Source of the DNA: Octopus vulgaris
Taxonomy: Eukaryota
Length of the DNA stretch: 64,000 bases
Direction of reading: 5' to 3'
NCBI GenBank assembly: GCA_951406725.2
Contig: CATOCA020000018.1
Location: forward strand, 1 to 64,000
The notes beneath the pieces are model-generated. The model made no database searches and was not told where the DNA came from. It saw only the letters and a program-made list of their open reading frames with translations. Shown piece after piece: positions 16,969 to 64,000 of this stretch (within the stretch, counting starts at the first letter, position 1; each line of letters opens with the position of its first letter). The translations under genes were made by a program, and so were the position numbers.

Positions 16969-17026
<58 letters not shown>

Positions 17027-17170
17027 TATACATACATATGCGTGCATATTTCTATTGCATATATAAACATATATATTTATGTGTATACATGCACATACAT
17101 GTGTGAGTGTACGGCGTCTCAGCTGTGTTAAATGCAGAAAAATGAATATAGGCGCAGGAGTGGCTGTGTG

Positions 17171-18510
17171 GTATCTCGTGATACTTTTCCGGCATCGGTC
17201 GCGGGTACGTCCACGTGTACTCGGGCGATACCGCGAGCTTAGGTTCGTTCTTTCGATTTCGGGCACGGTAGCGCGGCGGAGCAACGGGCGACTGGTGCAG
17301 GCCCTGCGCAACCCTGCCGCTGGCGGCCCCTACTTTATACTAGCCGCAGTTTCCATCTTTCGGGAATTTACGTAACGGACCACGTTGCTGTATCGACAGC
17401 GTGTATCTCGTGATATCCTTCCAGCATTGGTCGCGGGTACGTCCACGTTTACGTGGGTCACACCATTAGCTTCGAGAATGTCCGGTGTCGTCCGCCGACA
17501 CAGCGGCCTCACTCGAGCTCGATACCGAGAACTCACCCCAGAACTCGCCGCTTCGTGCCTCGTCGATAACTCTGGTACACGGTCGCATTACGTCCACGCT
17601 TACGTGGACGACATCGCGAGCTTCTGTTCGTTCTAACGGGTACATTAGGGCGGCGGAGCTCCGAGAGGCTGCCGCAGGCCTGCCGATGGCGGCCCCCCAC
17701 CTTATTCTAGCCGCAGTTTCCATCTTTCGGGACTTTACGGGAAGGACCACGTCTCTGTATCGACAGCGTGTATCTCATCACATCCTTTCGGCATCGGTCG
17801 CGTGTACGTCCAGGTTTACGTGGCGATACCCCGAGCTTAGGTTCGTTCTTTCGATTTCGGGCACGGTAACGCGGCGGAGCTCCTGGCGATTGGCGCAGGC
17901 CTGGCGCAACCCTGCCGCTGATGGCCTCTACTTTATACTCGCCGCAGTTGCTATCTTTCGGGATTTTACGGGGCGGACTACGTCTCTGTATCGACAGCGT
18001 GTATCTCGTGACATCCTTCCGGCATCGGTCGCGTGTACGTCCAGTTTTACGTGGCGATACCGCGAGCTTAGGTTCGTTCTTTCGATTTCGGGCACGGTAG
18101 GGCGGCGGAGCTCCGGGCGATTGGCGCAGGCCTGGCGCAACCCTGCCGCTGGCGGCCTCTACTTTATACTCGCCGCAGTTGCCATCTTTCGGGATTTTAC
18201 GGGGCGGACTACGTCTCTGTATCGACAGCGTGTATCTCGTGACATCCCTCCGGCATCGGTCGCGTGTACGTCCACGTGTACGAAGGCGATACCGCGAGGT
18301 TCGCATCAGCCTTACTAGATCGGGCACGGTAGGGCGGCGGAGCAACGGGCAGCTAGCGCAACCCTTCTACTGGCGGCCCCTACTTTATACTCGCCGCAGT
18401 TTCCTTCTTTCGGGAATTTACGGGACGGACCACGTCGCAGTACCAACCACGTGTATCTCGTGGCATCCTTCCAGCATTGGTCGTGGGTACGTCCACGTGT
18501 ACGTGGGTGA
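17171..18510. repeat. CpG-rich sub-repeat array A, ~231-bp period, about 5 partly interrupted units
   Basis: cgacagcgtgtatctc recurs at 17394, 17761, 17992 and 18223 (231-bp spacing for the last three); the unit after 17403 carries a B-type insert. Confidence 0.92.
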
Positions 18511-19080
18511 CGACACCATTAGTTTCGAGAAAGTCCGGTGTCGTCCGCCGGCACAGCGGCCCCACTCGTGCTCGATACCGAGAACTCACCTCAGAAATCG
18601 CCGCTTCCTGCCTCGTCGATCACATTCTGACACTCTCGTGCTTCACGTCGACTATAAGTTTGGCTTATCGACCGACCTAAATCACCTGCTACTTAAGCAC
18701 TACGATCTTTCTCCGAGATTCTCCCGCCGCCGTTTCGCTGGGCTTTGTCTTGCTTTGGGATTCGTCCGCCGACACGCCGGCCACAGTCGTGCTCGATACC
18801 GAGAACTCAACCCAGGAGTTGCCGATTCGTGCATCGCCGATATTACACAAACACACACTCGTGCTTCACGTCGACTATAAGTTTGACTTATCGACCGACC
18901 TAAATCACCTGCTACTTAAGCACTGCGATCTTTCTCCGAGATTCTCCCGCCGCCGTTTGGCTGGGCTTTTGTCGTGCTTTGGGATTCGTCCGCCGACACG
19001 CCGGCCCCAGTCGTGCTCGATACCGAGAACTCACCCCAGGAGTTGCCGATTCGTGCCTCGTCCATATCACACGGACACAT
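18510..19080. repeat. CpG-rich sub-repeat array B, ~223-bp period
   Basis: cgtccgccg..gctcgataccgagaactca near 18542, 18763, 18987 (and 17489); ctcgtgcttcacgtcgactataag near 18635 and 18857. Confidence 0.9.
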
Positions 19081-19197
19081 ATACTCATGCGTCGGTCGTA
19101 GTCGCCGCTGCATTTTTCAGTTATTGGCAACGCCGCCGCTAGAGGACCACCGACCGGTTTAGAGACGTTTGTAGAACCAGCTTCGTATGATAAACAC

Positions 19198-22100
19198 TTA
19201 ACGCTACGTGCCGCGAGGCCCTAGCTCATATATCGAACTCGCGAAGGCTACTTTACCAACATAACATCATTGAACACAGCAACGCTACCGAACGAGCGAA
19301 CAAAAATAAGAAAGAAATCTTACGCTTCGGGCCGCGAGGCCCTGACTGATATCGAACTCGTGACGTTTACTTTACCAACATAACATCACTGAACACAGCA
19401 ACGCTACCGAACGAGCGAACAAAAAAAAAATTTTACGCTTCGGGCCGCGAGGCCCTGCCTGATATCGAACTCGCGACGTTTACTTTACCAACATAACATC
19501 ACTGAACACAGCAACGCTACCGAACGAGCGAACAAAAAAAAAAAGTTTTGCGCTTCGGGCCGCGAGGCCCTGACTGATATCGAACTCGTGACGTTTACTT
19601 TACCAACAAAACATCACTGAACACAGCAACGCTACCGAACGAGCGAACAAAAGAAAAAAAAAATTTTACGCTTCGGGCCGCGAGGCCCTGACTGATATCG
19701 AACTCGTGACGTTTACTTTACCAACAAACATCACTGAACACAGCAACGCTACCGAACGAGCGAACAAAAGAAAAAAAAAATTTACGCTTCGGGCCGCGAG
19801 GCCCTGACTGATATCGAACTCGTGACGTTTACTTTACCAACATAACATCACTGAACACAGCAACGCTACCGAACGAGCGAACAAAAAAAAAAGTTTTGCG
19901 CTTCGGGCCGCGAGGCCCTGCCTGATATCGAACTCGTGACGTTTACTTTACCAACAAAACATCACTGAACACAGCAACGCTACCGAACGAGCGAACAAAA
20001 GAAAAAATTTTACGCTTCGGGCCGCGAGGCCCTGACTGATATCGAACTCGTGACGTTTACTTTACCAACAAACATCACTGAACACAGCAACGCTACCGAA
20101 CGAGCGAACAAAAAAAAAAAAAATTTACGCTTCGGGCCGCGAGGCCCTGACTGATATCGAACTCGTGACGTTTACTTTACCAACATAACATCACTGAACA
20201 CAGCAACGCTACCGAACGAGCGAACAAAAAAAAAAAAAGTTTTGCGCTTCGGGCCGCGAGGCCCTGCCTGATATCGAACTCGTGACGTTTACTTTACCAA
20301 CAAAACATCACTGAACACAGCAACGCTACCGAACGAGCGAACAAAAAAAAAAAAAATTTACGCTTCGGGCCGCGAGGCCCTGACTGATATCGAACTCGTG
20401 ACGTTTACTTTACCAACAAACATCACTGAACACAGCAACGCTACCGAACGAGCGAACAAAAAAAAAAAAAAATTTACGCTTCGGGCCGCGAGGCCCTGAC
20501 TGATATCGAACTCGTGACGTTTACTTTACCAACAAACATCACTGAACACAGCAACGCTACCGAACGAGCGAACAAAAGAAAAAAAAAGTTTTGCGCTTCG
20601 GGCCGCGAGGCCCTGACTGATATCGAACTCGTGACGTTTACTTTACCAACATAACATCACTGAACACAGCAACGCTACCGAACGAGCGAACAAAAAAAAA
20701 AAAGTTTTGCGCTTCGGGCCGCGAGGCCCTGCCTGATATCGAACTCGTGACGTTTACTTTACCAACAAAACATCACTGAACACAGCAACGCTACCGAACG
20801 AGCGAACAAAAAAAAAAAAATTTTACGCTTCGGGCCGCGAGGCCCTGACTGATATCGAACTCGTGACGTTTACTTTACCAACATAACATCACTGAACACA
20901 GCAACGCTACCGAACGAGCGAACAAAAAAAAAAAGTTTTGCGCTTCGGGCCGCGAGGCCCTGACTGATATCGAACTCGTGACGTTTACTTTACCAACAAA
21001 ACATCACTGAACACAGCAACGCTACCGAACGAGCGAACAAAAGAAAAAAAAAAATTTACGCTTCGGGCCGCGAGGCCCTGACTGATATCGAACTCGTGAC
21101 GTTTACTTTACCAACAAACATCACTGAACACAGCAACGCTACCGAACGAGCGAACAAAAAAAAGTTTTGCGCTTCGGGCCGCGAGGCCCTGACTGATATC
21201 GAACTCGTGACGTTTACTTTACCAACAAAACATCACTGAACACAGCAACGCTACCGAACGAGCGAACAAAAAAAAAAAGTTTTACGCTTCGGGCCGCGAG
21301 GCCCTGCCTGATATCGAACTCGTGACGTTTACTTTACCAACAAAACATCACTGAACACAGCAACGCTACCGAACGAGCGAACAAAAAAAAAAGTTTTGCG
21401 CTTCGGGCCGCGAGGCCCTGACTGATATCGAACTCGTGACGTTTACTTTACCAACAAAACATCACTGAACACAGCAACGCTACCGAACGAGCGAACAAAA
21501 AAAAAAAAATTTTACGCTTCGGGCCGCGAGGCCCTGACTGATATCGAACTCGTGACGTTTACTTTACCAACAAAACATCACTGAACACAGCAACGCTACC
21601 GAACGAGCGAACAAAAAAAAAAAGTTTTGCGCTTCGGGCCGCGAGGCCCTGACTGATATCGAACTCGTGACGTTTACTTTACCAACAAAACATCACTGAA
21701 CACAGCAACGCTACCGAACGAGCGAACAAAAAAAAAAAAATTTTACGCTTCGGGCCGCGAGGCCCTGACTGATATCGAACTCGTGACGTTTACTTTACCA
21801 ACAAAACATCACTGAACACAGCAACGCTACCGAACGAGCGAACAAAAAAAAATAAAGCTCTACGCTTCGGGCCGCGAGGCCCTGCCTGATATCGAACTCG
21901 TGACGTTTACTTTACCAACAAAACATCACTGAACACAGCAACGCTACCGAACGAGCGAACAAAGAGAAAAAAAAAATTTACGCTTCGGGCCGCGAGGCCC
22001 TGACTGATATCGAACTCGTGACGTTTACTTTACCAACATAACATCACTGAAGACAGCAACGCTACCGAACGAGCGAACAAAAAAAAAAAAAAATTTTACG

Positions 22101-22725
22101 CTTCGGGCCGCGAGGCCCTGACTGATATCGAACTCGTGACGTTTACTTTACCAACATAACATCACTGAACACAGCAACGCTACCGAACGAGCGAACAAAA
22201 AAAAAAAAGTCTTACGCTTCGGGCCGCGAGGCCACGACTGATATCGAACTCGTGACGTTTACTTTACCAACATAACATCACTGAACACAGCAACGCTACC
22301 GAACGAGCGAACATAAAAAAAAAATAATATTACGCTTCGGGCCGCGAGGCCCTGACTGATATCGAACTCGTGACGTTTACTTTACCAACATAACATCACT
22401 GAACACAGCAACGCTACCGATCGAGCCAGCAAAAAAAAAAAAAAAAAATGTTACGCTTCGGGCCGCGAGGCCTGCCTGATATCGAACTCGTGACGTTTAC
22501 TTTACCAACAAAACATCACTGAACACAGCAACGCTACCGAACGAGCGAACAAAAAAAAATTAAAATTTTACGTTTCGGGCCGCGAGGCCCTGCCTGATAT
22601 CGAACTCGTGACGTTTACTTTACCAACATAACATCACAGCAACGCTACCGAACGAACGAACAACAAAATAAATAAATAAAAACGCAAAGCTACGGGCCGC
22701 GACGTCCTGGCTGATATCGAACTCA
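19198..22725. repeat. Tandem array C: about 30 copies of a ~116-bp CpG-rich unit with a variable A-tract
   Basis: Unit: ttacgcttcGGGCCgcgaGGCCCtgactgatatcgaactcgtgacgtttactttaccaaca(t/a)aacatcactgaacacagcaacgctaccgaacgagcgaac(A)n. I counted 29 near-identical hairpin cores from 19329 to 22576, plus degenerate end copies near 19209 and 22693. Confidence 0.98.
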
Positions 22726-23598
22726 CGAACGCGAGAGAAGGAGCGAAGCACAGCGAAAAGCTAACGTACGGGGGCAAGTGCGGACAATTTTTGGCAAAGC
22801 AAACCGTTGTAGGACGATATCGAACTGGGAACAGTATAGCAAGGCGTCCAGAAATTAACTGAGAATACGAATCTTGCCGGCTGGCTAATTTTTGCTTGAT
22901 GTTCACCCCCTAATATTGTCTGGGCCCCCTTGGGGTGCGACGGTCACCTAGAGCGTGACTATCCAGCCGGGGCCGATCCGTTTTCTTGCGGTCTGAGCAC
23001 CTCCTACGACTTACGGGTCGGACCACGTCGCTGTTTTTACCCGATACGTGGACGATATCGCGCGTTTAGTTTCGTGCTTTCGATTTCACGCACAGTACGG
23101 CGGCGGAGACGCAGGCGACCGGCGTGCGACGGTCACCTAGAGCGTGACTATCCAGCGTGGGCCGATCCGTAAGCTTACGGGTCTGATTTTTTTTAATTAC
23201 GGGTCAGTCCACGTATGTGTATTTTCCCGGTGCATATCGTAAGGTGAAGGATAAATTTACCGGATGTTTACGTTTTGATATACGACAACGCGGCGTGACG
23301 CGGTGATCGTATGCGAAACTTTGTATTATCTTCCCGATAGCCACCACGCTAGAGTTTTGTTGACATTGCTTCGTACCGTAACTTGAAGCATAAATTCACC
23401 GGATGTTTACGTTTTGCTATACGAGCACGCGGCCCAAAGGCGTAGCTGGCGGCCCCACGGTGGCACTTTTTGTTTTCTTTACGATTAAAGAAACCACGAC
23501 TTCCCTGTTGTTTTGTTCGTAATGTAGCGTTCGTAATTTCGATATTAGCAATTTCGATTTTACGTGAAAAATAAAATCATTTAACTTGTTATTTTTCG
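22725..23598. repeat. CpG-rich right flank of the island with degenerate A/C-related and local duplicated motifs
   Basis: gcgacggtcacctagagcgtgactatccagc twice (near 22937 and 23127); taaatt[t/c]accggatgtttacgttttg twice (near 23252 and 23391); an A-like segment at 23020-23120. Confidence 0.8.
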
Positions 23599-23864
23599 AC
23601 TGAAATAAGCCCGTCGTATATAAATAAATATATATATATATATGTGTGTGTCTGTTTGTCCCTCCCCCCGAACATCGCTTGACAACCGATGCTGGAGGTG
23701 TTTACATCCCCGTCAATTAGCCGCTTGGCACGAACCTCTAGGCTTAATAAGAATAAGTATTGGGATCGATTTGCTCGACTAAAGACGGTGCTCCAGCATG
23801 GCCACAGTCAAATGACTGAAACAAGGTAAATTAAAACGTATATATATATGTTCTTTTATATATG

Positions 23865-49275: not shown

Positions 49276-52200
49276 TGATTGATTGATTGATTCTAGTTTC
49301 AGCTCATGAGCTGTGGCCATGCTGGGGCACCGCCATTTGGTGTTGCTACTTGGTTTTACTTCACGAAAGCTTTTTAGCAACTGCCATTTGGTGCATGAGA
49401 GAGTTCGATGCAGCTGCCCTCATCTGCACCTCCTGCCGTGAAGTTGGTTCATCTGGGACACCTGACAGGAAGAAATCCAGTTCCATTTTAAAGACATCTG
49501 CATCCACCCCATGCAGGTCTCTCAGGTTCTTCGGGAGGATATTGAAGAGCTGTGGGCCACGGAAGCTCGGGCTATCACAGTATCGTGTCCTACATCTTGA
49601 TGGCAAATTTGGAGTCCTAGGCACCACGTAGTGGCGCCCAGTTCTGGCATTTGTGTAACTCTCGATGCCAAAGTTTGGGACACGTCCCTCCAGGATCTTC
49701 CAGATATATATTATGGCATATCTTCCCCGCCTACGCTCCAAGGAATATAGTTTTAATCTCTTGAGTCTTTCCCAGTAGCTTACATTCTGCATAGAGGCTA
49801 TCTTCTTCGTGTAGCTACGCTGGATCGCCTCGAGCTCTGTGATCAACTTGACACTGGATGTTGACAATAACTAAGAGCAATAGTCAAAGTGGCTTAGGAC
49901 AAGTGTCCTCCAGAGGACCATCATGGTTTCTTGTTCTCTTGTTCTAAAGGTTCTGAGAATCCATCCGGCCAGCCGTCTACATTTCATTGCCAATTTAGCA
50001 AAATGAACACGAAAGGTTGCGTCATCACTCATGTAAATACCCAGGTCACGCACTGATTGTGCCTCTGGGATTGCTATTCCTCCGGGTCCAGTGTATTCAT
50101 TGGGTATTGCATTTAGTTTTGCATGCTGATAGTATAAAGCTTGAAACTTTTCAGCATTGAACTGCATGCTATTCTTTTCAGCCCACTTGTATATTTCGTC
50201 CAGCTCACATTGCAGGTGCTTAGCGTCTTCAGGGTTCTGTATTGCCTGTGAAACTTTTGTATCATCTGCATAACTTGTGATCGTGGCTCTCTGCGTGGCT
50301 GAGGGCATGTCTGAGAGGGCCATTATGAACAGTAGTGGTCCCAAAACAGTGCCCTGCGGAACACCGCTCACTATTTGTGTGTTAATGGAAGTGGCCTCAT
50401 TGGCTGCTACCACCTGACTTCTATTCTTCAGAAAGTCATGAAGCCATTCTCCCAATTTTCCAACTATGCCAAGATCACGCAGTTTGTGACATATCATTCC
50501 ATGATCGACTTTATCAAAGGCCTTTGCAAAGTCGAGATATATGACTTCCACATTTGAGTGGTTGAGCAGTTGTTTCAGCACCCAGTCATAGTGTTGTAGG
50601 AGCTGAGTTAAACAGCTTCTTCCTGGTCGGAAACCATGTTGGGTGTCAGGCAGCAAGTCATTTTCTTCAAGGAAGGTGATTAGTTTCCTTCTGACTATTC
50701 GTTCCATGACCTTGCTGATGTGTGAGGTGAGAGAGATAGGTCTGTAGTTCTTGGCCTCTGCTCTGCTACCACCTTTATGAATAGGACATATTTTACCTTC
50801 CTTCAGTTTTTTTGGAAGTTTGCCAGCTGCTAGGAAGCTCTGAAAGAGGATCTGCAGTGGTCTTGCTAGGACTCTCTTACATACTTTTAGGAGGATTGCC
50901 GGGAATCCATCGGGGCCAATAGCTGATTCTGTTTTCATTTCATCTATGGCCTTTATTACATCGTCTTCCTTTATATCGATGTAATTTATCGTCGCCGCCT
51001 CTGATTTTATATCTGCAGTGGTAAAGAAGTCAGTTGGATTGGTGATTTGGAAATGCCCGAGGGTGGAATGAAAACACTCTTGAATTGCTCATTCAGTATT
51101 TCACTTACCCTCATTGGTTTTCCTGTGAGTGTACCATCCTCTTCAAGGAGTGGCCCTATCCTACAGTGCACCGTAGCTGTTTCTTTGGCATACCTGTAGA
51201 AAGCTCTGGGGTTAGATTTTATGTTGTCTATAGTCCAGGCTTCTTTGTCTGCTCTTTCCTTTTCATGGGAGAGTTGCAGACATTTTTCAATTTCCAACAG
51301 TTTTATTTTCAGGCGGGACTTTTCACTGCTTTCAATCTGTTTGTTTAGGCGATTTGAAATTTTTGTACGCCGTCTCATTAAGATTTTCCTCTTTCTGGGG
51401 ATTTTGTTCTTGTGTACAGTGGCCTTTCTCTCTGGGACACATTTGTAGCATATGGCTTGCGTTACAGACATGAATTGTTGAAGTTTCACGTCGATGTCTG
51501 GCGAGGAGAGACATTTAGGCCAGTTTTGTTTGAGGATCTCTTTCTCAATTTGTTTCCAGTTTGCCTTATGGTAGTTCAAGCTGGAAAGATTCTGAGGGTT
51601 TCTTGTAGGCTGCATGTCCGTGCTTTCTTTTGGCCCGTACATGGTCAGCTCTACCATGTTGTGATCCGAGAGTAGTGTCGGTGTCACTTTCACATTATGG
51701 ATGAGATCCATATTATTTGTGAAGTAGAGATCCAGTGTGTTACCTGCCCTGGTTGGTTGGAGTATTACTTGCTCCATGTACAGGGTGTTGATGAGGTTCA
51801 GGAGGGACCTCGCCTGTCCTCGTTCACATCTTGTCATTCCTGGGAGAGAAAGGCCCTCGGGCCATCTGACATTGGGTAGATTGAAGTCTCCCATAAGAAG
51901 TACACTTATGTGTTGTTCTAATGTGATTAGAACTTCTTCTATTTTTATAAGGCAGTCTTCAAACTTGCCCACATGGCTTGGGGCATCTGGAGGGCGATAT
52001 GTAGCACACACAACTACATCAAGTTGCCTTATATGTACAATTAGTGTGTCACACACCGAGTTTGAGTATGACAAGAGGACCTGGGGTGTGAGGTCCTCAC
52101 GGATGTACATAGCAACTCCTCCATGACTCCTTTCTTTTCTGTCGGTCCGTAGTATAACATACTGTGGTATGTGTAACTCCGCATCTGCTATGTCCGGTTT

Positions 52201-52856
52201 CAGGTGCGTTTCTGTAAGTGCTATGCATAAGGCTTGATTGCATGCAACAAAGTCTCTCAAGAACGGGATCTTTGTCCTGTTACTGAGTGTTTGCAGCCCT
52301 CTGATGTTCAGTAGGAGCATCGAGGTGAGGTGTATGTTGTTGCCGGCGGTGTCCATCCTGGGTCTGTTTGCTGTGGTGGTCTTGTATATAGTGGGTAGTC
52401 CCACCTGCGGGCTTGGGTTTGATGAAGCCAGGTCAGCTGCTGTACAATCTTTTGTGCCATGCACAAAAAAGATTGCTGCTCAGCAGCTGCCCTTTTTAAC
52501 AACATCATGTTTGCGGTTTGTGGCACGCACAACATCTGCGTACCTCCGCTTTGAGGCAGGTGGTGCGTGGACCTTCCCTTTTCCTTGTGTTGATGGCTTG
52601 TCCATCTGCCTCGTGTCTCTGCGGCAGGGTCCCCGATGTGCAAAGCGGCAGCCTGCACCTTCCTTTCCATGCCAGCAGGTACCTCTCAGGTAGAACCTAC
52701 ACACCCGTCGGCGCTGTTTGTTTCCATCCTTTGCAGTTCCACTTCCATTCCTGGTTGTTTCACCCTTTGGTCCTGCTTGAGCTCTTCCTTTAGCTCTTTC
52801 AGTCCTTCTTTTAGTTCTTCTTCCTCCCTCTACCTCTTCCCCGGGTTCTCCGTCTA
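49272..52856 (-). mobile_element. CR1-group non-LTR retrotransposon, 5'-truncated, with (AATC)n tail
   Basis: APE endonuclease and RT domains, 3' UTR, and tandem tail (tgat)n on the plus strand at 49272-49292; inserted in (TA)n. Confidence 0.93.
49361..52704 (-). pseudogene. LINE polyprotein pseudogene: CCCH-like zinc finger + apurinic-like endonuclease + reverse transcriptase
   Basis: CRFYLRGTCWHGKEGAGCRFAH (52480-52704); LNIRGL, LTETHL, YRPP, MGDFN, TLDL, SDH (51007-52464); GPDG, QHGF, YLDFAKAFDKV, GVPQGTVLGP, YADD (49871-50938); LYSLERRR (49361-49867). In-frame stops at 52480 and 49871 and a frameshift near 51050. Confidence 0.93.
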
Positions 52857-52963
52857 CATATATATATATATGTAGATGTATGTATGAATATATCTATTCT
52901 TAGAAATATGTTACATATACACACACGTTTATATATATGTACACACATACGTTCATACATATC

Positions 52964-53009
<46 letters not shown>

Positions 53010-53133
53010 TATACATACATATGCGTGCATATTTCTATTGCATATATAAACATATATATTTATGTGTATATATGCACATACATGTGTGAGTGTACGGCGT
53101 CTCAGCTGTGTTCAATGCAGAAAAATGAATATA

Positions 53134-53304
53134 GTCGCAGGAGTGGCTGTGTGGTAAGTAGCTTGCTAACCAGCCACATGGCTCCGGGTTCAGTCCCACT
53201 GCGTGGCATCTTGGGCAAGTGTCTTCCGCTATAGCCCCGGGCCGACCAATGTCTTGTGAGTGGATTTGGTAGACGGAAACTGAAAGAAGCCTGTCGTATA
53301 TATG

Positions 53305-57115: not shown

Positions 57116-58208
57116 GGCAGTTTGTCTGTGCGTGTTTCTGTGTGTCTGTTTTCTCGTACCCTCACTCTGACCACGGCTTTCAACCGATTCTGATGAAACT
57201 TGACACACACATAGCCCAATGTCATAATTCAAAACTAACGTAGCGAAAATTTTGAAAAGTTCCCACAGTTTTTAAAAATTGATAAATTCGACATGGGGTC
57301 GAGAATCAGAAACACGAACCACAGACTATCTAGGGGACGCAACTCGAGAATCTAAGCTTTTTTTATGCAACGCATTATCTATGGTAGTTTTCACAACTTG
57401 CAATCGATTTTCACCAAACTCATGGTGAAGCTTAATGTTACCCTAAGAAACTCAATTCTGAAGTTAGTTTTCCATGCAATACCTTACCATCAGAAACAGT
57501 CGATAAAATCATGCCATTTTGGGAAATCGCGTTCAAATTCAAGATGACATATTTTCGACAATATCTTTCACAAATTGGCAGGAATTTTTTTTTTTTCACA
57601 ACGAGCATCATGTCTGCTCCAAGGAGCTATATAGCCCTTTTTATTCCAATAGGATACATTATTGGAAAAAATCGGTTAATTTAATCATATGTGGCACACA
57701 TAGCAAACAAATTTGTGTATTAAACACAAACCAGACTGCCTAGGGGACGCAACTTGACCTTTTTAGCTATCGATAATTCGATCCAACCAATTCCTACCAG
57801 GAAGAAATTACATTCGAGACTTTACCCCCAACACCGCCACTTCTGCTAATAGCTGCTGCAGCCGCAAGTTATTCGAATACTTTTTTTGTTTAAACTTTCT
57901 TTATAACTACCACCCCAAACGTTTTACCTTCAATTTTTGACGTACCCTAACGGTCCTCGGACGCTACTTGCAAACTCTTGGTTTATTATAAACCACTTTT
58001 GTCGTGTGCATCAAAAAACTTTTCCTTTCGTTTGTTCAGTTTGATCACTTTTGACTTTTTCGTTGTTGTCACTCACATTGCTACCCGCTTTTTGGCCGTT
58101 TTTGTACATTTTTATACATTTTTATACAGCTCCTTTTTATTTTTCGGATACTTACCCCACGTGTTCCTTTTTATTACACCTTTGCCAAACACATTGCTAT
58201 CCACCAAA

Positions 58209-61200
58209 ATGCCACCCAAGAAGAGAAGGACCCTCCTCAGCCCTCGGACGGCCAAGGCATCGGCTGCTAGGGCTAGAAGGGCACGCGAGACCCACGAGGA
58301 AACCGCCTTGCGCTTCTCGCAAACAGCTTCCCGTTATGCCGCTGCTCGGGCATCTGAAACTACTAGCGACCGTTCTACCCGACTTGCAAGGGTCGCAGCG
58401 TACAGATCTTCCCTCCGCTCGAGGTTGACGAAAGAGCAACAGTCCAGCCAAAACATGCGGGCTTCTTACTGTGCTTCCATCCGCAGAGCTCGCGAGAACC
58501 CCGAACAAAGGGCCATTCGGAATGCGGCTAACGCCACTAGCACCGCCAGGACACGATCTGTCGAAACCTCACAGCAGAGGAGAACTCGCCAAGATGCTGA
58601 CGCCGCAAACAAAGCCATAGCCCAAGCTGCCGAAACACCTCAACAGAGGAGAGCTCGCCAAGCTGCTAACGCCGCAAACACAGCCAGGGCTCGATCTGCC
58701 GAAACTCCACACCAACGAAATATTCGGACATCCAGACAGGCCATTAACACTGCTTCTGCTAGGGCTTCAGAGGGTGCTGAGGCGAGAGCTGAAAGGCTTT
58801 CAAGGGATGCCACTGCTACCGCTGTCGCACGTGCATCTGAATCTGCTGAGGCACGGTGCACTCGACTTGAGAGTATCAACAAACGTCGGGATATCATTCT
58901 TGGTGTACGTACCCCTTCCCCCGCTTTCTGGTTGTCACTAACATTCAACTACGACGCCACAATTAACTTCTCCTTGCGTGACGACATCAAGATAGGGTCA
59001 ATGAGAATTGTATGCCAGTTTTGCAAAGCCAAGAAATGGCCCGGAGAGCCACCTGGTTTGTGCTGCTCTGGTGGCAAAGTGGACCTGCCACCCTACGGGA
59101 ACCACCTCAACCACTGAAGGATCTCGCGGCGGGTTTAACCCCCGAATCGTCACAATTCCTTGAAATAATTCGAAAGTACAACTGCTCATTCCAAATGACC
59201 TCTTTCGGGGCCAAAATTCCTCCCAGAGAAGGCTGGATGCCTACTTTCAAAGTGCAGGGACAGGTCTACCATCTTATTGGGTCACTTCTGCCAGACGAGA
59301 TTCAGCAGTCTTCTTTCCTCCAAATATACTTCATTGCCGACTACAACCACCAGGTTGATGCACGCCTTGGAATAATACCGGGTACAAGCTATGTTCCCCG
59401 CAAAGACATTCTTCTCCGTCTCCAAACCATGCTTCATGATATCAACAGCTACGTCTGCAGCTTCAGATATGTCTTGGACAGTGCTCCATCTCCAAACTTC
59501 ACCGTTGTCATTGGTGCTGATAAACGACCCCACGGGGAGCACGAACGCCGTTTCAACGCACCTGCGTGCAACGAAATTGCCGCAGTCATACACGGAGAGC
59601 GACACAACAGCCGTGACATAATCATCTCCTCCCGTGGTAACAACCTACACAGGATCAGCGAGACTCACAGATCTTATGACGCGCTTCAGTATCCATTGCT
59701 TTTCCCTTATGGGGAAGACGGCTACCACTTCGGAATTCCTTTACGGCAGCCCTCCAATCAAACTACTGCGGCATCAAAGACGGTTTCCTGCAGGGCGTTC
59801 TACTCATATCGGTTCATGGTCAGGGAGGGTGAGTTCAGCTTATTGCCCCGTTGTCGTCAGCTATTCAACCAGTTCGCCGTCGACATGGCCGCAAAAATGG
59901 AATCGGAAAGGCTGCTATACATTAAACTTAATCAGACCAAACTTCGCTCCGACTCCTACATTCATCTCCGTGACGGTTTGCAACAAGAAAATGACCCTCG
60001 CAACATCGGCAAGCCATGCATTCTACCCTCCACCTTCACGGGAGGACCGCGATATATGCGTGAAAGGACCCAAGACGCCTTGACCTACGTGCGCATTTAC
60101 GGCCGGCCGGACCTCTTTATCACCTACACGTGCAATCCCAGCTGCGACGAAATCACTCGCGAACTCCTCCCGGGTCAATCTCACACCCATCGACACGACA
60201 TCGTTGCTAGGGTTTTCCGTCTGAATTTGGGCAAAATTAAGGATTTGATAGTTAAGGGTCAGATTTTCGGGCATGTCAGGTGCCACGTTTTCGGTCGAGT
60301 GGCAAAAGAGGGGCTTGCCACATGCTCACGTCTTAATTTGGCTCACTCATAAAATCGAGACTAATGACATTGACAAATTCATTTCCGCCGAGATTCCTGA
60401 CCCCGATGAGGACCCCGGACTCTACGAAATTGTCCGCACTACCATGGTACACGGGCCCTGTGGACCAAATTACGCCAACACACCATGCTACAAAAACGGA
60501 TTAGCCTGCTCAACGGGATTCCCTAAACGGTTCACTTTGGAGACTCAAACAGGCGGCGATGGGTATCCGCTGTACAAACGAAGGAGTCGAGCCAATGGAG
60601 GCCGCACACGATTACGGTTGGGCGACATCAAGTGGACAACAGCTACATTGTCCCCTACTGTCCTCTCCTGTCGAAGATATTCAAAGCCCACGTCAACGTT
60701 GAGTTCTGCAGCTCCATCAGGTCAAAACAATATGTCTGCAAATATATCAACAAAGGCAGCGATGTTGCCATGTTCAGCATCCAGAGGACCACCAGTCGCG
60801 ACGAAGTGTCCAACTATTTTCAAACAAGATGATGGTCGTGAACCCCCTCCATTTGATAGATCGGTACCTCCAATGCTTCGATTGATCATCACGCGGGACG
60901 AAGTCAAACGTGTTATCCAAGGCATCGATGTCAACAAGGGTCACGGCCCTGATGGCATACACCCACGGGTTATCAAAGCGTTGGCTCCGGTCATCTGCGA
61001 GCCCTTAACACGACTATTCAATATGTCATTGGCGACGGGTGTTATACCTGCAGACTGGAGAACAGCGATAATCTGCCCAATTTTCAAGACCCGCTTAGCT
61101 ACCGACCGGTTTCCCTTACATCAATAATCAGCAAGATGTTCGAAACCATCCTTAAGAAAAGTATGATGCTCCACCTCCTAAACACAGCCTCGATCACTGA

Positions 61201-62418
61201 TTCCCAACACGGCTTCGTGCCGAAGAGATCATGCTTGACCAACTTACTAGTAATGGAAGAATTGGTGACGTGCATCCTCGATGATAGTGATGCTGTTGAC
61301 ATCGTTTTATTGGACTTTGCCAAAGCTTTTGACTCGGTAAACCACCGAGCATATAGTTTCCATCCGGATATTGTACGATGGGTTGGTGCCTTCCTCTCAG
61401 ATCACTCCTTCCAAGTTCAAGTTAATGGTTCGCGGTCCGACGTCTCCAGTGCGAGCAGTGGCGTGCCTCAAGGTTCAGTGCTTGGGCTCTTGTTGTTCTT
61501 AGTCTTCATAAATGACTTGCCCGACGACCTCACGCAACACACCCTTCTATTTGCCGACGATATCAAACTAGTCGCTCCTCGCGGTAGTATAGAGGATCTT
61601 CGTCGATGCCTCCACCAAATTTGGAAGTGGTCTAACGATTGGGACATGTGTCTGAACGTGTCAAAGTGTTGTCATCTGCCTGTCGGCTCTACTCCTGCAA
61701 CTCAACTTGATTTCGAGCCGGGTCGTCTGCTGCTGGAGAGGACCGATCAGGTAAAGGACCTGGGTATCTTGGTGGATTCCTCCTTATCGCCTTCGGCCCA
61801 GTGCGTCCATGCTGCCAACAAAGCGCGCGGAATTCTGTTTTTGATTCGACGGTCATTCGGAATGCTCACAGCAGCCATATTCCTGCCACTCTATGTCACG
61901 CTGGTGAGACCCATATTGGAGTATGGGATTCAAGCCTCTTCTCCTTATCTTCTCAAAGACATACAGCATCTCGAAAGAGTCCAGAGGCTGGCTACCCGCA
62001 TGGTTCATGGTCTCAAAAATTTGTCCTACGAAGAAAGGCTGAGGACGCTCGACCTTTATTCTCTTGAAAAACGCCGCCGCCGCCGTGGTGATCTCATTCT
62101 CGCCCACAACATCATAAGCGGAAAGTGTAACCTCTCGAAAGAGCTGTTCTTCACTCCTGCTCCGGAGCGTCGGCTGCGGGTCATTCCGAAAAGCTCTACC
62201 TGCGACGATTTCATCTCAATCGAAGGAGAGGAGCTTTCTCCGTCCGGGTTGCGGATCCGTGGAACAAGCTGCCAGACGAGATGGTGAAGATGCCGACGAC
62301 CGCTTTGTTCAGAGCCTCCCTGGACCTCAAGTGGCCTGAACTCTTTACATGAACACCACCCTGTACTTAACTCCATGTCCCCCTACATGGCCTTGCTATT
62401 TGCTTTTGAGCCAATTAT

Positions 62419-62456
<38 letters not shown>

Positions 62457-64000
62457 CTTGGCTGGCCGGTACCTCAGCAGCAACGAAGCGTTTTGGCGCA
62501 TTTACGGCAACTTGCTGGTGCAGCTTGCTGTACACTTGGAAAATGGACAGCGGATTTACTTCACAGAGCAAAGTGCTGTGCAGATAGCCACCAGCCCTAA
62601 AGACACAACGTTGACTGGTTTCTTCAAATTATGCCAACGTGATGACTTCGCTCGAACGCTTTTGTACCCACAGGTCCCATCGTACTTCGTGTGGTCTAAA
62701 AACACCTGGGTTCGACGGAAATCCGGCAAAAACGTCGAAGGCTTCCCAGGCGTCAAGTTTGACTTCTGCCTGGGTCGAGTTTACAACATCCCGCCAAACC
62801 AGCAAGAATGCTTCTACCTCCGTCTCCTTCTACATGAGGTCAATGGTCCAACAGGTTTCGCCAATATACGTACCATCAATGGGGTTCTGTGCGACACCTT
62901 CAGGGAAGCATGTATGAGACTTGACCTTCTAGAGGATGACTCCCAGTGGGACGCCACGATGGCAGAGGGCGCTTTACTGCAAACGCATTCGGCCCTACGA
63001 CATCTTTTCGCAATCCTTCTTCAAAAATGTCAGCTTAGTGATCCACTAAGTCTCTGGATGAAATACAGGGATGACATGTCGCACGACTTCTTACGTACGG
63101 CTCAGCAACACTGCCCTTCTGCCGAGATCACGTTCACCAACTTCATTTACAATTTTGCGCTCATTCAACTCGAAGACGCTGTCATCGATATGGGTGGGTC
63201 TGCTTTAACAGAGTACGGCCTTCCACCACCCACACGTGAACACGCCAATGTTATGTCTGCTGAATTGTTACGCGAAACTTCCTACTGCATTGAGGAACTG
63301 CACCAGTACGTCCAAGATAATGAACCACGGCTGCTTCCAGACCAGCGCATAGCCTACAACACCATCGTAGACTCTGTCAGACAGCAACGTGGAGGGATTT
63401 TCTTCCTTGATGCACCCGGCGGCACTGGCAAAACCTTCGTCACTAAACTAATTCTGGCAGAGGTCAGACGCAACACGGACATTGCCCTGGCTGTAGCTTC
63501 CTCTGGTATCGCGGCCACGTTGCTTCCGGGTGGCAGAACCGCCCACTCTGCCTTCGACGAGTGCACTATGGCACACAAAGGCGCCCTTGAGGCACTGGAC
63601 AGGTCCCTGCAAGACATCAGAGACTCTACGGCCCCCATGGGAGGATTAACTTTACTTCTTTCAGGAGACTTCAGGCAGACTCTAACTGTTATTCCAAAAG
63701 GAACCCGTGCCGATGCCGTGTGCGCGTGCCTTAAGTCGTCAGCTCTTTGGGCACATGTGCGGCCCTTGCACCTCCAAACTAACATGCGCGCGCAGTTAAT
63801 TGGTGACAGCGGATCCGCTGCATTCTCCAGGGACCTCTTATCGCTCGGTGAAAATAGGATGCTGTCTGATGCGGATGGCTACGTTCAATTGGACTCACTT
63901 TGCACCATTGTCGACACCCCTGTTAGCCTCCGGGACGCTGTCTTCCACGACCTACAAAACAATTTACGCGACCTAAAATGGCTGGCAGGCAGAGCTATTC
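58209..64000 (+). pseudogene. Helitron RepHel transposase pseudogene (several frameshifts, LINE insertion, internal deletions)
   Basis: MPPKKRR start; ET.QQRR.RQ repeats; CQFCKAKKWPGEPPGLCC; ILPSTFTGGPRYM; YGRPDLFITYTCNP; HUH motif VEWQKRGLPHAH; YVCKYINKG; after the LINE, GRYLSSNEAFWRI; helicase FLDAPGGTGKTF, SSGIAATLLPGGRTAHS, DECTM, GDFRQ. Confidence 0.93.
60817..62451 (+). mobile_element. 5'-truncated CR1-group LINE (RT only) with (TAAC)n tail, nested in the Helitron
   Basis: GPDGIHPRV, QHGF, LDFAKAFDSV, GVPQGSVLG, FADD, LERVQRLATRMV (ORF 61136-62287); tail 62419-62456; the Helitron frame DEVSNY|LAGRY is restored on excision. Confidence 0.93.

What the first reader, a model, noticed from the sequence alone, without database searches (positions are those of the whole stretch)
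17171..23598. Sharply bounded 6.4-kb CpG-rich island made of several related sub-repeat arrays, with no gene or transposase
Seen: composition switches abruptly from AT/microsatellite DNA to CpG-dense sequence with no microsatellites, organised as ~231-bp (A), ~223-bp (B) and ~116-bp (C) arrays plus a degenerate flank. No rRNA, tRNA or protein motif is recognisable. Established: stacked sub-repeat arrays of different periods are typical of rDNA intergenic spacers and of centromeric satellites. Inference: an orphan rDNA spacer, a centromere- or subtelomere-type satellite module, or an undescribed non-coding locus. Dense CpG suggests it has escaped methylation-driven decay or arrived recently. 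This is my best candidate for something undescribed.
Basis: partly seen in the sequence, partly recalled or inferred. Interest (0 to 1): 0.8.

Follow-up and report, generated by a model that had tools for sequence, protein, structure and literature searches.

The report
Stray ribosomal spacer with new repeat
This 6.4-kb CpG-rich patch is built on pieces of the spacer that separates the ribosomal RNA genes elsewhere in the same genome, with a different 116-base repeat expanded between them; it is most likely an inert stray copy of a kind known from plants and flies, although it keeps a predicted ribosomal promoter pointing into the new repeat.

Summary
The island is real, at the stated coordinates. 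It is an orphan piece of ribosomal DNA intergenic spacer (IGS). The same genome holds intact 18.36-kb rDNA units (G000:C20). The island's 231-bp A repeat, the core of its 223-bp B repeat and a promoter-like block match their spacer, covering 1,941 of 6,428 bp. No rRNA gene is attached. The largest part, thirty 116-bp C units, has no spacer match. Its only relative is a 75-bp piece in a small transposon-like element that also carries an A fragment. The island occurs at three places in the assembly, with shared flanks and different repeat counts, and in public runs under three species labels. It is not one per chromosome, and centromere, contaminant and misassembly readings have no support. CpG density is inherited from the spacer. 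One oddity remains: spacer homology stops exactly at the predicted Pol I start motif, so C sits where the rRNA precursor would be. Function is untested. The scan earlier noted relocated whole rDNA units in this genome, but not this island.

The parts
16973..17173 (+). Left flank, ending in the first 24 bases of a SINE-like repeat. It shares 3 bases (17171-17173) with the first A unit.
   Evidence: 97% to the island-free paralogue at window 52956-53156; the match stops at 17173. The SINE label is recalled, not tested.
17171..17472 (-). One full A unit plus the start of the next (rDNA spacer sub-repeat; rRNA sense is the minus strand)
   Evidence: BLASTN to the intact rDNA units; local alignment score 165 against a best of 36 in 30 shuffles
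17492..17570 (-). Core of the 140-bp repeat that follows the 28S gene in the intact units
   Evidence: Up to 91% to the stray 140-bp array at G000:C27; score 48 against a best shuffle of 31 on the intact unit
17580..18510 (-). A array, 231-bp period. The C28 copy has six more units.
18541..19079 (-). B array, 223-bp period: a 90-bp core of the post-28S 140-bp repeat plus a 132-bp part that is probably a more diverged copy of the same repeat
   Evidence: Core. The 132-bp part: z 3.5, 0 of 500 shuffles against the intact unit's repeat and 2 of 500 against the C27 array, lenient scoring only
19080..19200 (.). Linker of unknown origin
   Evidence: Found only in the window and the C28 copy. A 23-base match to a 5' ETS is too short to assign.
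19201..22672 (.). C array: about 30 units of 116 bp, each with an A run; homogeneous inside, diverged at both edges; no match to the rDNA unit
   Evidence: three places in the assembly; 59 of 79 columns match a piece of a dispersed TIR element
22673..22907 (.). D1: begins as a degenerate C unit, the rest unassigned
   Evidence: 22 of 22 bases match the TIR element; weak gapped likeness to promoter-proximal ETS and spacer (z 2.7-2.9); three places only
22908..23043 (-). D2: copy of the block repeated five times per intact spacer, once just upstream of the 5' ETS; predicted Pol I promoter, with the predicted start motif at about 22906-22918
   Evidence: 90.6% to the intact units, 93% to the closest strays; position and duplication pattern. 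Promoter function is inferred.
23045..23239 (-). D3: an 80-bp piece of A joined to a second, truncated promoter-like copy that lacks the start motif
23235..23598 (.). D4: a 60-bp duplication and, at 23440-23550, an inverted, permuted C-like piece; no spacer match
   Evidence: 36 of 39 bases match the TIR element
23599..23840 (+). Right flank: downstream part of a different SINE-like copy; no target-site duplication seen
   Evidence: 75% to the left-flank paralogue, 85-88% to other copies

Best explanation
The island is a gene-less patchwork of ribosomal DNA spacer pieces lying outside the rDNA array, in which a 116-bp unit of other origin was likely multiplied on the spot, and it is most likely inert. 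Shown: homology and orientation of A, the B core, D2 and D3 to the spacer of intact rDNA units; absence of rRNA genes; three assembled copies with shared flanks and different A and C counts. Inferred: spacer DNA, perhaps from excised rDNA circles, was pasted in as filler at a chromosome break that fused two different SINE-like copies. Unequal exchange or slippage then expanded A, B and C locally. The whole block was later duplicated with its flanks, and a Helitron-like element entered the C28 copy.
For: Intact 18.36-kb units with 18S, 5.8S and 28S lie in tandem at G000:C20:23.94-24.08 Mb. Their spacer covers 1,564 bp of the island by BLASTN, and stray arrays of the post-28S repeat cover 377 bp more. 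At a separate locus A repeats lie between an Rfam LSU and an SSU match (L033). The genome is littered with such strays: 240 candidate places for A (40 scored), 156 for an 18S 5' probe (40 scored), and 14 of 20 further loci carry under 1 kb of rDNA in ordinary DNA. The junctions show a 3-base shared end, no target-site duplication and flanks from different SINE-like copies. C units are homogeneous inside, diverged at the edges, and carry locus-specific variants. Counts differ between copies: about 30, 19 and at least 26 C units; 3 against 9 full A cores. The window and C28 copies differ by 35 substitutions in 2,358 non-array island bases (1.5%), against 5 in 318 (1.6%) in the one flank segment measured, so no constraint is visible.
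Against: About 4.2 kb (linker, C, D1, D4; 65%) has no spacer match in 57 fetched loci, so most of the island's length is not explained by the rDNA link. The promoter-like block is better kept (91%) than A (80-83%), and its homology ends at the motif where the intact unit's gene and spacer copies diverge; among 72 such cores only the 3 island copies continue into a third sequence. A random break would rarely fall there. The flank control for constraint is a single 318-bp segment. Contigs from two runs guessed to be RNA cover the C end, D1 and D2 with island-type letters.
Confidence: 0.7

Rival explanations
1. The island is one deleted rDNA unit of an older or second spacer class, in which C, D1 and D4 were native spacer or ETS sub-repeats that today's array has lost by concerted evolution.
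For: The order A, 140-bp-type B, gap, promoter-like block, A piece is what one unit would give if everything from the post-28S repeats to the start site were replaced. Island A units group with old strays, not the present array. A dispersed TIR element carries a C-like piece and, in 15 of 17 copies, an A fragment, as if both came from one source. D1 shows weak collinear likeness to promoter-proximal ETS (z 2.7-2.9).
Against: No C, D1 or D4 sequence was found in any of 57 fetched loci, including old strays that run from A through the 140-bp repeats into 28S (L030). The D1 scores are among 140 tests and do not survive that number. The TIR element also holds telomere-type runs and pieces of another common repeat, so it collects unrelated DNA. 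D2 groups with newer, not older, copies.
Confidence: 0.15
2. The island works as a gene-less Pol I transcription unit: the retained promoter would drive a repeat RNA through D1 and the C array on the minus strand, ending near the B repeats, which sit in the post-28S position where terminators are expected.
For: The promoter-like block is intact up to and including the predicted start motif, and is 91-93% like current copies. An A piece and a second promoter-like copy lie upstream, as in the spacer. Duplicated spacer promoters that make non-coding RNA are known in mammals, Xenopus and Drosophila (PMC12326227, passages). Contigs of runs X10 and X17 (two studies; RNA is only a guess) cover the C end, D1 and D2 with island-type letters.
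Against: Promoter and terminator are inferred from position only. The C28 copy has a 1.86-kb insertion right at the predicted start site, between promoter and C. No constraint is visible between copies. C has no Rfam match (best E 1.2) and no unusual fold (z -0.6 to -1.5). Contigs cannot show strand, start or level.
Confidence: 0.1
3. The island is a centromeric or subtelomeric satellite module.
For: A spacer-derived array is part of a Drosophila centromere (PMC6516634, passages). Two of the three copies are on small unplaced contigs, and one contig begins inside the C array.
Against: An exact 17-base C motif gives 87 matches genome-wide. 69 of them are in the three island copies, 13 coincide with the TIR elements, and 5 are isolated sites with no array. 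Arrays are 2-3.5 kb. The placed copy is at 9.6 of 29.2 Mb, among SINEs and Helitrons.
Confidence: 0.03
4. The island is a misassembly or contaminant.
For: The window is the start of a 78-kb unplaced contig. No listed read contig bridges the right junction by the required 31 bases (best 14), and the left junction was not tested with reads.
Against: It is assembled three times with host flanks and independent differences, once inside a 29-Mb contig. Nine runs in six studies hold half or more of the sampled words, one of them possibly the assembly's source. A 24-base C motif has 0 matches in the metagenome, prokaryote-genome and viral collections.
Confidence: 0.02

Closest known systems
IGS-derived satellite of tomato and related Solanum (Jo et al. 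2009, PMC2679016; abstract and outline read)
   Same: Spacer sub-repeats are kept and amplified while rRNA coding sequence is eliminated; abundance varies among related species.
   Different: There the amplified monomer is itself an IGS sub-repeat and forms FISH-scale blocks. Here the IGS-derived arrays are short, and the most amplified unit (C) has no IGS match.
IGS3cen array in the Drosophila melanogaster centromere-3 island (Chang et al. 2019, PMC6516634; passages read)
   Same: A gene-less spacer array of single origin, diverged from the rDNA array, in an animal genome.
   Different: That array is CENP-A-enriched. Here nothing points to a centromere, and CENP-A was not testable.
Spacer promoters and enhancer repeats of the 5' IGS (PMC12326227; passages read)
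   Same: Duplicated promoter-like blocks separated by short repeats, as in this genome's intact spacer (five copies per unit).
   Different: Known spacer promoters act inside the rDNA array. Here one copy lies outside it, fused at the predicted start to unrelated sequence; activity is untested.
Satellite arrays inside lepidopteran IGS (PMC10257491; passages read)
   Same: A foreign or new satellite of about 2 kb or more embedded in spacer DNA and varying in copy number.
   Different: Those arrays sit in complete rDNA units. C is absent from this genome's intact units.

Membership tests
Orphan rDNA spacer fragment | Sequence homology to the IGS of the genome's own intact rDNA unit | tested here: met
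   1,941 of 6,428 bp, at both ends of the island; 91% for D2, 80-83% for A
Orphan rDNA spacer fragment | Lies outside the rDNA array with no rRNA coding sequence attached | tested here: met
   0 Rfam hits in the window. In the whole of C48 and C42 and 100 kb of C28, only spacer positions of the unit match.
Orphan rDNA spacer fragment | Whole element collinear with one spacer | tested here: not met
   About 4.2 kb has no match, and the promoter-like block lies on the far side of the 140-bp-type repeats
IGS-derived satellite (tomato, Drosophila IGS3cen type) | The amplified monomer is an IGS sub-repeat | tested here: inconclusive
   Met for A and B. Not met for C, the largest array (score 24 against shuffle mean 24.4).
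IGS-derived satellite (tomato, Drosophila IGS3cen type) | Amplified into long homogeneous arrays | tested here: not met
   In this assembly: 3-9 full A cores, 2.4 B units and 19-30 C units, at 3 places
Pol I spacer-promoter transcription unit | Duplicate of the sequence directly upstream of the 5' ETS, ending just after the start site | tested here: met
   The start site itself is inferred from the gene-versus-spacer divergence point and from a recalled plant-type TATA-GGG motif.
Pol I spacer-promoter transcription unit | Pol I initiation and a stranded transcript | not testable with these tools
   Only contigs were available; they give no strand, start or level
Centromeric satellite | About one large array per chromosome | tested here: not met
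Centromeric satellite | CENP-A occupancy | not testable with these tools
   no ChIP data
TIR, MITE or foldback transposon | Terminal inverted repeats at the island's ends | tested here: not met
   Only a 40-base, 80% inverted match between D4 and C. Proximal D4 against reversed C is not significant (49 of 500 shuffles), distal D4 is marginal (14 of 500).
TIR, MITE or foldback transposon | Target-site duplication | tested here: not met
   The flanks come from different SINE-like copies

The most novel reading that the evidence does not exclude
A gene-less mini rDNA unit: it keeps the Pol I promoter, upstream spacer repeats and post-28S repeats, but the whole rRNA precursor has been swapped, exactly at the start site, for a 116-bp tandem array. 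Pol I makes a repeat RNA from it, and the block has been amplified tens of times in a sister species, where it could compete with the true rDNA for Pol I or seed nucleolar contacts.
Probability: 0.1. Interest if true: 0.7.

Novelty: new variant of a known kind. Interest (0 to 1): 0.3.

Why it matters
As an inert relic it matters little: spacer-derived orphans and satellites are known in plants and flies, and this genome has many. It does yield the spacer anatomy of an octopus-type rDNA unit (140-bp post-28S repeats, A repeats of about 200 bp, five promoter-like copies), which my two literature searches did not find described. It also catches a satellite at birth: 19-30 copies at three places, with a dispersed single-unit relative. 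If the promoter fusion is active, it would be a natural case of Pol I transcribing non-ribosomal DNA outside the rDNA array, and a direct test of whether stray rDNA promoters give rise to new non-coding RNAs.

Tried and rejected
RNA families and structure. Rfam at E up to 10 on the B/C and D regions gave only chance-level hits, best E 0.86. C-unit folding was unremarkable. Two sub-threshold Pfam hits on island frames were ignored. The bacterial promoter scan does not apply to this organism.

Origin of C. A 140-bp AT-rich satellite next to a stray rDNA copy looked like C by eye but scored within shuffles. A foldback reading (C arms around a captured promoter) failed. The linker matched neither C (399 of 500 shuffles) nor the 140-bp repeat (140 of 500). 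The C motif resembles a SINE B box (seen at L133); a SINE-head origin for C was not tested.

CpG decay. No CpG-specific decay between the window and C28 copies: 4 transitions at 516 CpG-site positions against 12 at 1,842 others. The script stopped before the last two flank segments.

Sequencing runs. No RNA holder listed. Depth figures are leads only, since the tool states they are neither copy number nor expression. Contigs on D1-D4 have depth 328-413 in X1 (organism A) and 11,415-13,966 for three contigs in X6 (organism B), with similar summed depth on the flanking SINE (41.8 and 42.5 million); other listed X6 contigs there are at 13-987. In X10 the C bin sums to 50,737, D1 to 85 and the promoter-like bin to 117, whereas that bin sums to 561,616 and 738,369 in the two DNA runs. 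X17 looks closer to DNA proportions (972, 25, 366). X10 has no cover at 23420-23634. The A runs in C could also enrich DNA or RNA on oligo-dT. Reads were laid only on 22560-23830, so the left junction and a silent control stretch are untested.

Other searches. Window 930-1500 has no close allele elsewhere (best 87%), so the contig is not simply a haplotig of a placed region. Literature searches for an octopus rDNA spacer or satellite (listings only) returned nothing relevant. Subscription journals are largely absent from the library, and no supplements were opened; repeat libraries in genome-paper supplements could already hold these units.
Full report
Observation. The island is as described. 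TRF finds the 231-, 223- and 116-bp arrays. CpG density is 101.7/kb inside against 29.2/kb outside. Rfam and ARAGORN find nothing in the window, and none of 11 island frames scanned reaches a Pfam cut-off. The window is bases 1-64000 of a 78-kb contig, G000:C48, in a 2.8-Gb assembly.

The A repeat is rDNA spacer. A search with one A unit gave 240 candidate places, of which 40 were scored. At L033 the A repeats lie between an Rfam LSU match and an SSU match. An 18S 5' probe then located a tandem array on C20 with nine hits between 23.94 and 24.08 Mb. Rfam found complete 18S, 5.8S and 28S there, and the unit is 18,360 bp. Read on the window's plus strand, which is antisense to the rRNA, its spacer runs: 5' ETS, a 136-bp block (D2), A repeats in four further blocks each headed by another D2 copy, about eight 140-bp repeats, then the 28S end. 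The unit covers 1,564 bp of the island: 17171-17472, 17580-18510, 22908-23043 and 23045-23239. Stray arrays of the 140-bp repeat cover 377 bp more. Direct alignments of those pieces to the intact 140-bp repeat score 48, 51 and 36 against a best of 31 in 30 shuffles. The remaining 132 bp of B is probably a more diverged copy of the same repeat (0 of 500 shuffles, lenient scoring). So 30% of the island is spacer with confidence, and 34% probably.

What is not spacer. The linker, the C array, D1 and D4, about 4.2 kb, score within shuffles against the unit. They have no convincing match in 37 plus 20 fetched loci, apart from the island's own C42 copy and the flanks beside it. Genome searches place C, D1 and the full D4 at three places only: the window, C28:9.62 Mb and the start of C42. 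An exact 17-base motif gives 87 matches: 69 in these arrays, 13 in the TIR elements below, and 5 isolated sites. The one relative of C is a 1.2-1.5-kb dispersed element found at 17 loci. It has inverted ends of about 210-235 bp, and 8-bp target duplications in all 10 copies whose two ends were found, 9 of them perfect, of 12 examined. Just inside one end it carries a piece matching C at 59 of 79 columns, D4 at 36 of 39 and D1 at 22 of 22. In 15 of 17 copies it also carries a 30-bp A fragment between telomere-type runs. Which way the C-like piece moved is not settled.

Three copies. C42:964-58683 matches C48:20523-78000 at 97-99% and could be the other allele; the C28 copy matches at 92-98% in pieces. 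The C28 copy has nine full A cores against three, about 19 C units against 30, and a 1.86-kb insertion with Helitron-like ends between D1 and D2. C units are near-identical inside each array, carry locus-specific variants and are diverged at the edges, as expected from unequal exchange (established knowledge). Non-array island sequence differs between the window and C28 by 35 of 2,358 bases, like the one flank segment measured (5 of 318), with no CpG excess. The left flank is 97% like an island-free paralogue at 52956-53156 and breaks inside a SINE-like head, sharing three bases with the first A unit. The right flank belongs to a different copy, and no target duplication is seen. This reads as filler at a rearrangement break (inference). 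Small spacer fragments in ordinary DNA are common here: 14 of 20 loci carry under 1 kb of rDNA.

Age and CpG. Island A cores are at most 83% like the present array and 87-89% like older strays, and group with those strays in a quick tree without support values. D2 is 91% like the array, 93% like its closest strays, and groups with newer copies. The island is therefore not a fresh copy of today's spacer and may be a mixture. Its CpG richness needs no special explanation: the spacer has 153 CpG/kb, and methylation is reported as very low on octopus transposons and most repeats, with satellites the exception (PMC9476566, passages).

The oddity. In the intact unit the D2 copy before the 5' ETS and the four spacer copies agree up to one short motif and then diverge. 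That is the pattern of duplicated Pol I promoters (PMC12326227, passages). The island's D2 agrees up to the same motif and then switches to D1. Of 72 such cores in the fetched loci, 57 were classed as continuing into spacer sequence, 11 into ETS and 4 as other; one of the four is a diverged spacer copy, and the other three are the island's copies, a single event. On the rRNA-sense strand the island therefore reads: A piece and truncated promoter copy, predicted promoter, D1 and C array, repeats of the post-28S type, A repeats. C occupies the place of the rRNA precursor. This could be chance, a break at an active start site, or a kept promoter. Against function, the C28 copy is interrupted exactly there, no constraint is visible between copies, and C has no RNA family or unusual fold.

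Other samples. Twenty of 24 listed runs hold part of 22330-23600. Nine hold half or more of the words, in six studies and two species labels; a third label holds 0.46; the best run may be the assembly's source. Contigs of four runs cover the C end, D1 and D2. Those of X1 match D1-D4 with no differences, and those of organism B differ at a few percent. None of the listed pieces bridges the right junction by 31 bases. Two of the four runs are guessed to be RNA, which does not show transcription. Depth contrasts that suggest more copies in one sample of organism B, and C-rich content in X10, are leads only and are given under Tried and rejected. A 24-base C motif is absent from the metagenome, prokaryote and viral collections.

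Comparison and verdict. Spacer-derived repeats outside the rDNA array are known in tomato (PMC2679016, abstract and outline), at a Drosophila centromere (PMC6516634, passages), and satellites inside spacers in Lepidoptera (PMC10257491, passages). The island qualifies as an orphan spacer fragment. It does not fully qualify as an IGS-derived satellite, since its main array is not from the spacer. It fails the centromere distribution and transposon end tests. Searches for an octopus rDNA spacer in print found nothing relevant (listings only; supplements not opened). Earlier scan notes describe relocated whole rDNA units on other pieces of this genome but nothing near or like this island. Verdict: real, largely explained, a new variant of a known kind; interest 0.3, with about a one-in-ten chance of an active Pol I-driven repeat unit.

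Noticed in passing
L093-L109, e.g. L094:1270-2679 (G000:C10:100.046 Mb): A 1.2-1.5-kb non-coding element at 17 loci, with 210-235-bp inverted ends and 8-bp target duplications. It carries a patchwork cargo: a C-like piece, a 30-bp rDNA spacer fragment between inverted telomere-type runs (found in both orientations among copies), and pieces of a common 184-bp repeat. Pack-MULE-like by architecture (recalled label).
   Followed up: partly
G000:C20:23.94-24.08 Mb (L041-L050): Intact tandem rDNA units of 18.36 kb; the 18S spans about 2.65 kb and the 28S about 4.9 kb by Rfam; the spacer has five promoter-like copies. One unit has a 4.7-kb insertion in 28S with a 1,225-aa reverse-transcriptase frame (L048:6322-9999), R2-like by position.
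   Followed up: partly
genome-wide: Many scrambled rDNA and spacer fragments of 150 bp to over 10 kb lie outside the array, of several ages; they preserve older spacer variants (e.g. L028, L030, L031, L112, L115).
   Followed up: partly
L022:844-2710 (G000:C28:9.619-9.621 Mb): A 1.86-kb insertion with Helitron-like ends, containing a nested fragment that looks mariner-like by eye, sits right at the predicted Pol I start motif of the C28 island copy.
   Followed up: no
window 57951-63999: Helitron Rep/helicase gene in pieces (STPRs, Helitron_like_N, PIF1) with a reverse-transcriptase LINE fragment nested at about 60820-62450.
   Followed up: partly
window 49300-52850 (minus strand): LINE with endonuclease and reverse-transcriptase frames, CpG o/e 0.35-0.57, inside a paralogue of the island's left flank.
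   Followed up: partly
window 24000-46550 and 5950-13700: Tandem units of about 5.8 kb (four copies, 94-97%) and about 2.8 kb made of SINE-like pieces, a 184-bp repeat and microsatellites; the 5.8-kb unit is shared with C42 and C28.
   Followed up: no
window 930-1500: CpG-poor sequence (o/e 0.13-0.27 over 1-2000) with many 74-87% relatives clustered on C29 and C31, conserved in blocks like exons; no close allele in the assembly. Gene family not identified.
   Followed up: partly
window 22700-23630, runs X1 and X6: Contig depth on the island's unique part and adjoining flank is tens of times higher in one organism B run than in one organism A run, at similar SINE depth. A lead for amplification of the block; depth here is not a copy number.
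   Followed up: no
L036:5500-7000 (G000:C3:181.416 Mb): An AT-rich satellite of roughly 140-bp period abuts a stray rDNA fragment; unrelated to C by shuffle test.
   Followed up: partly
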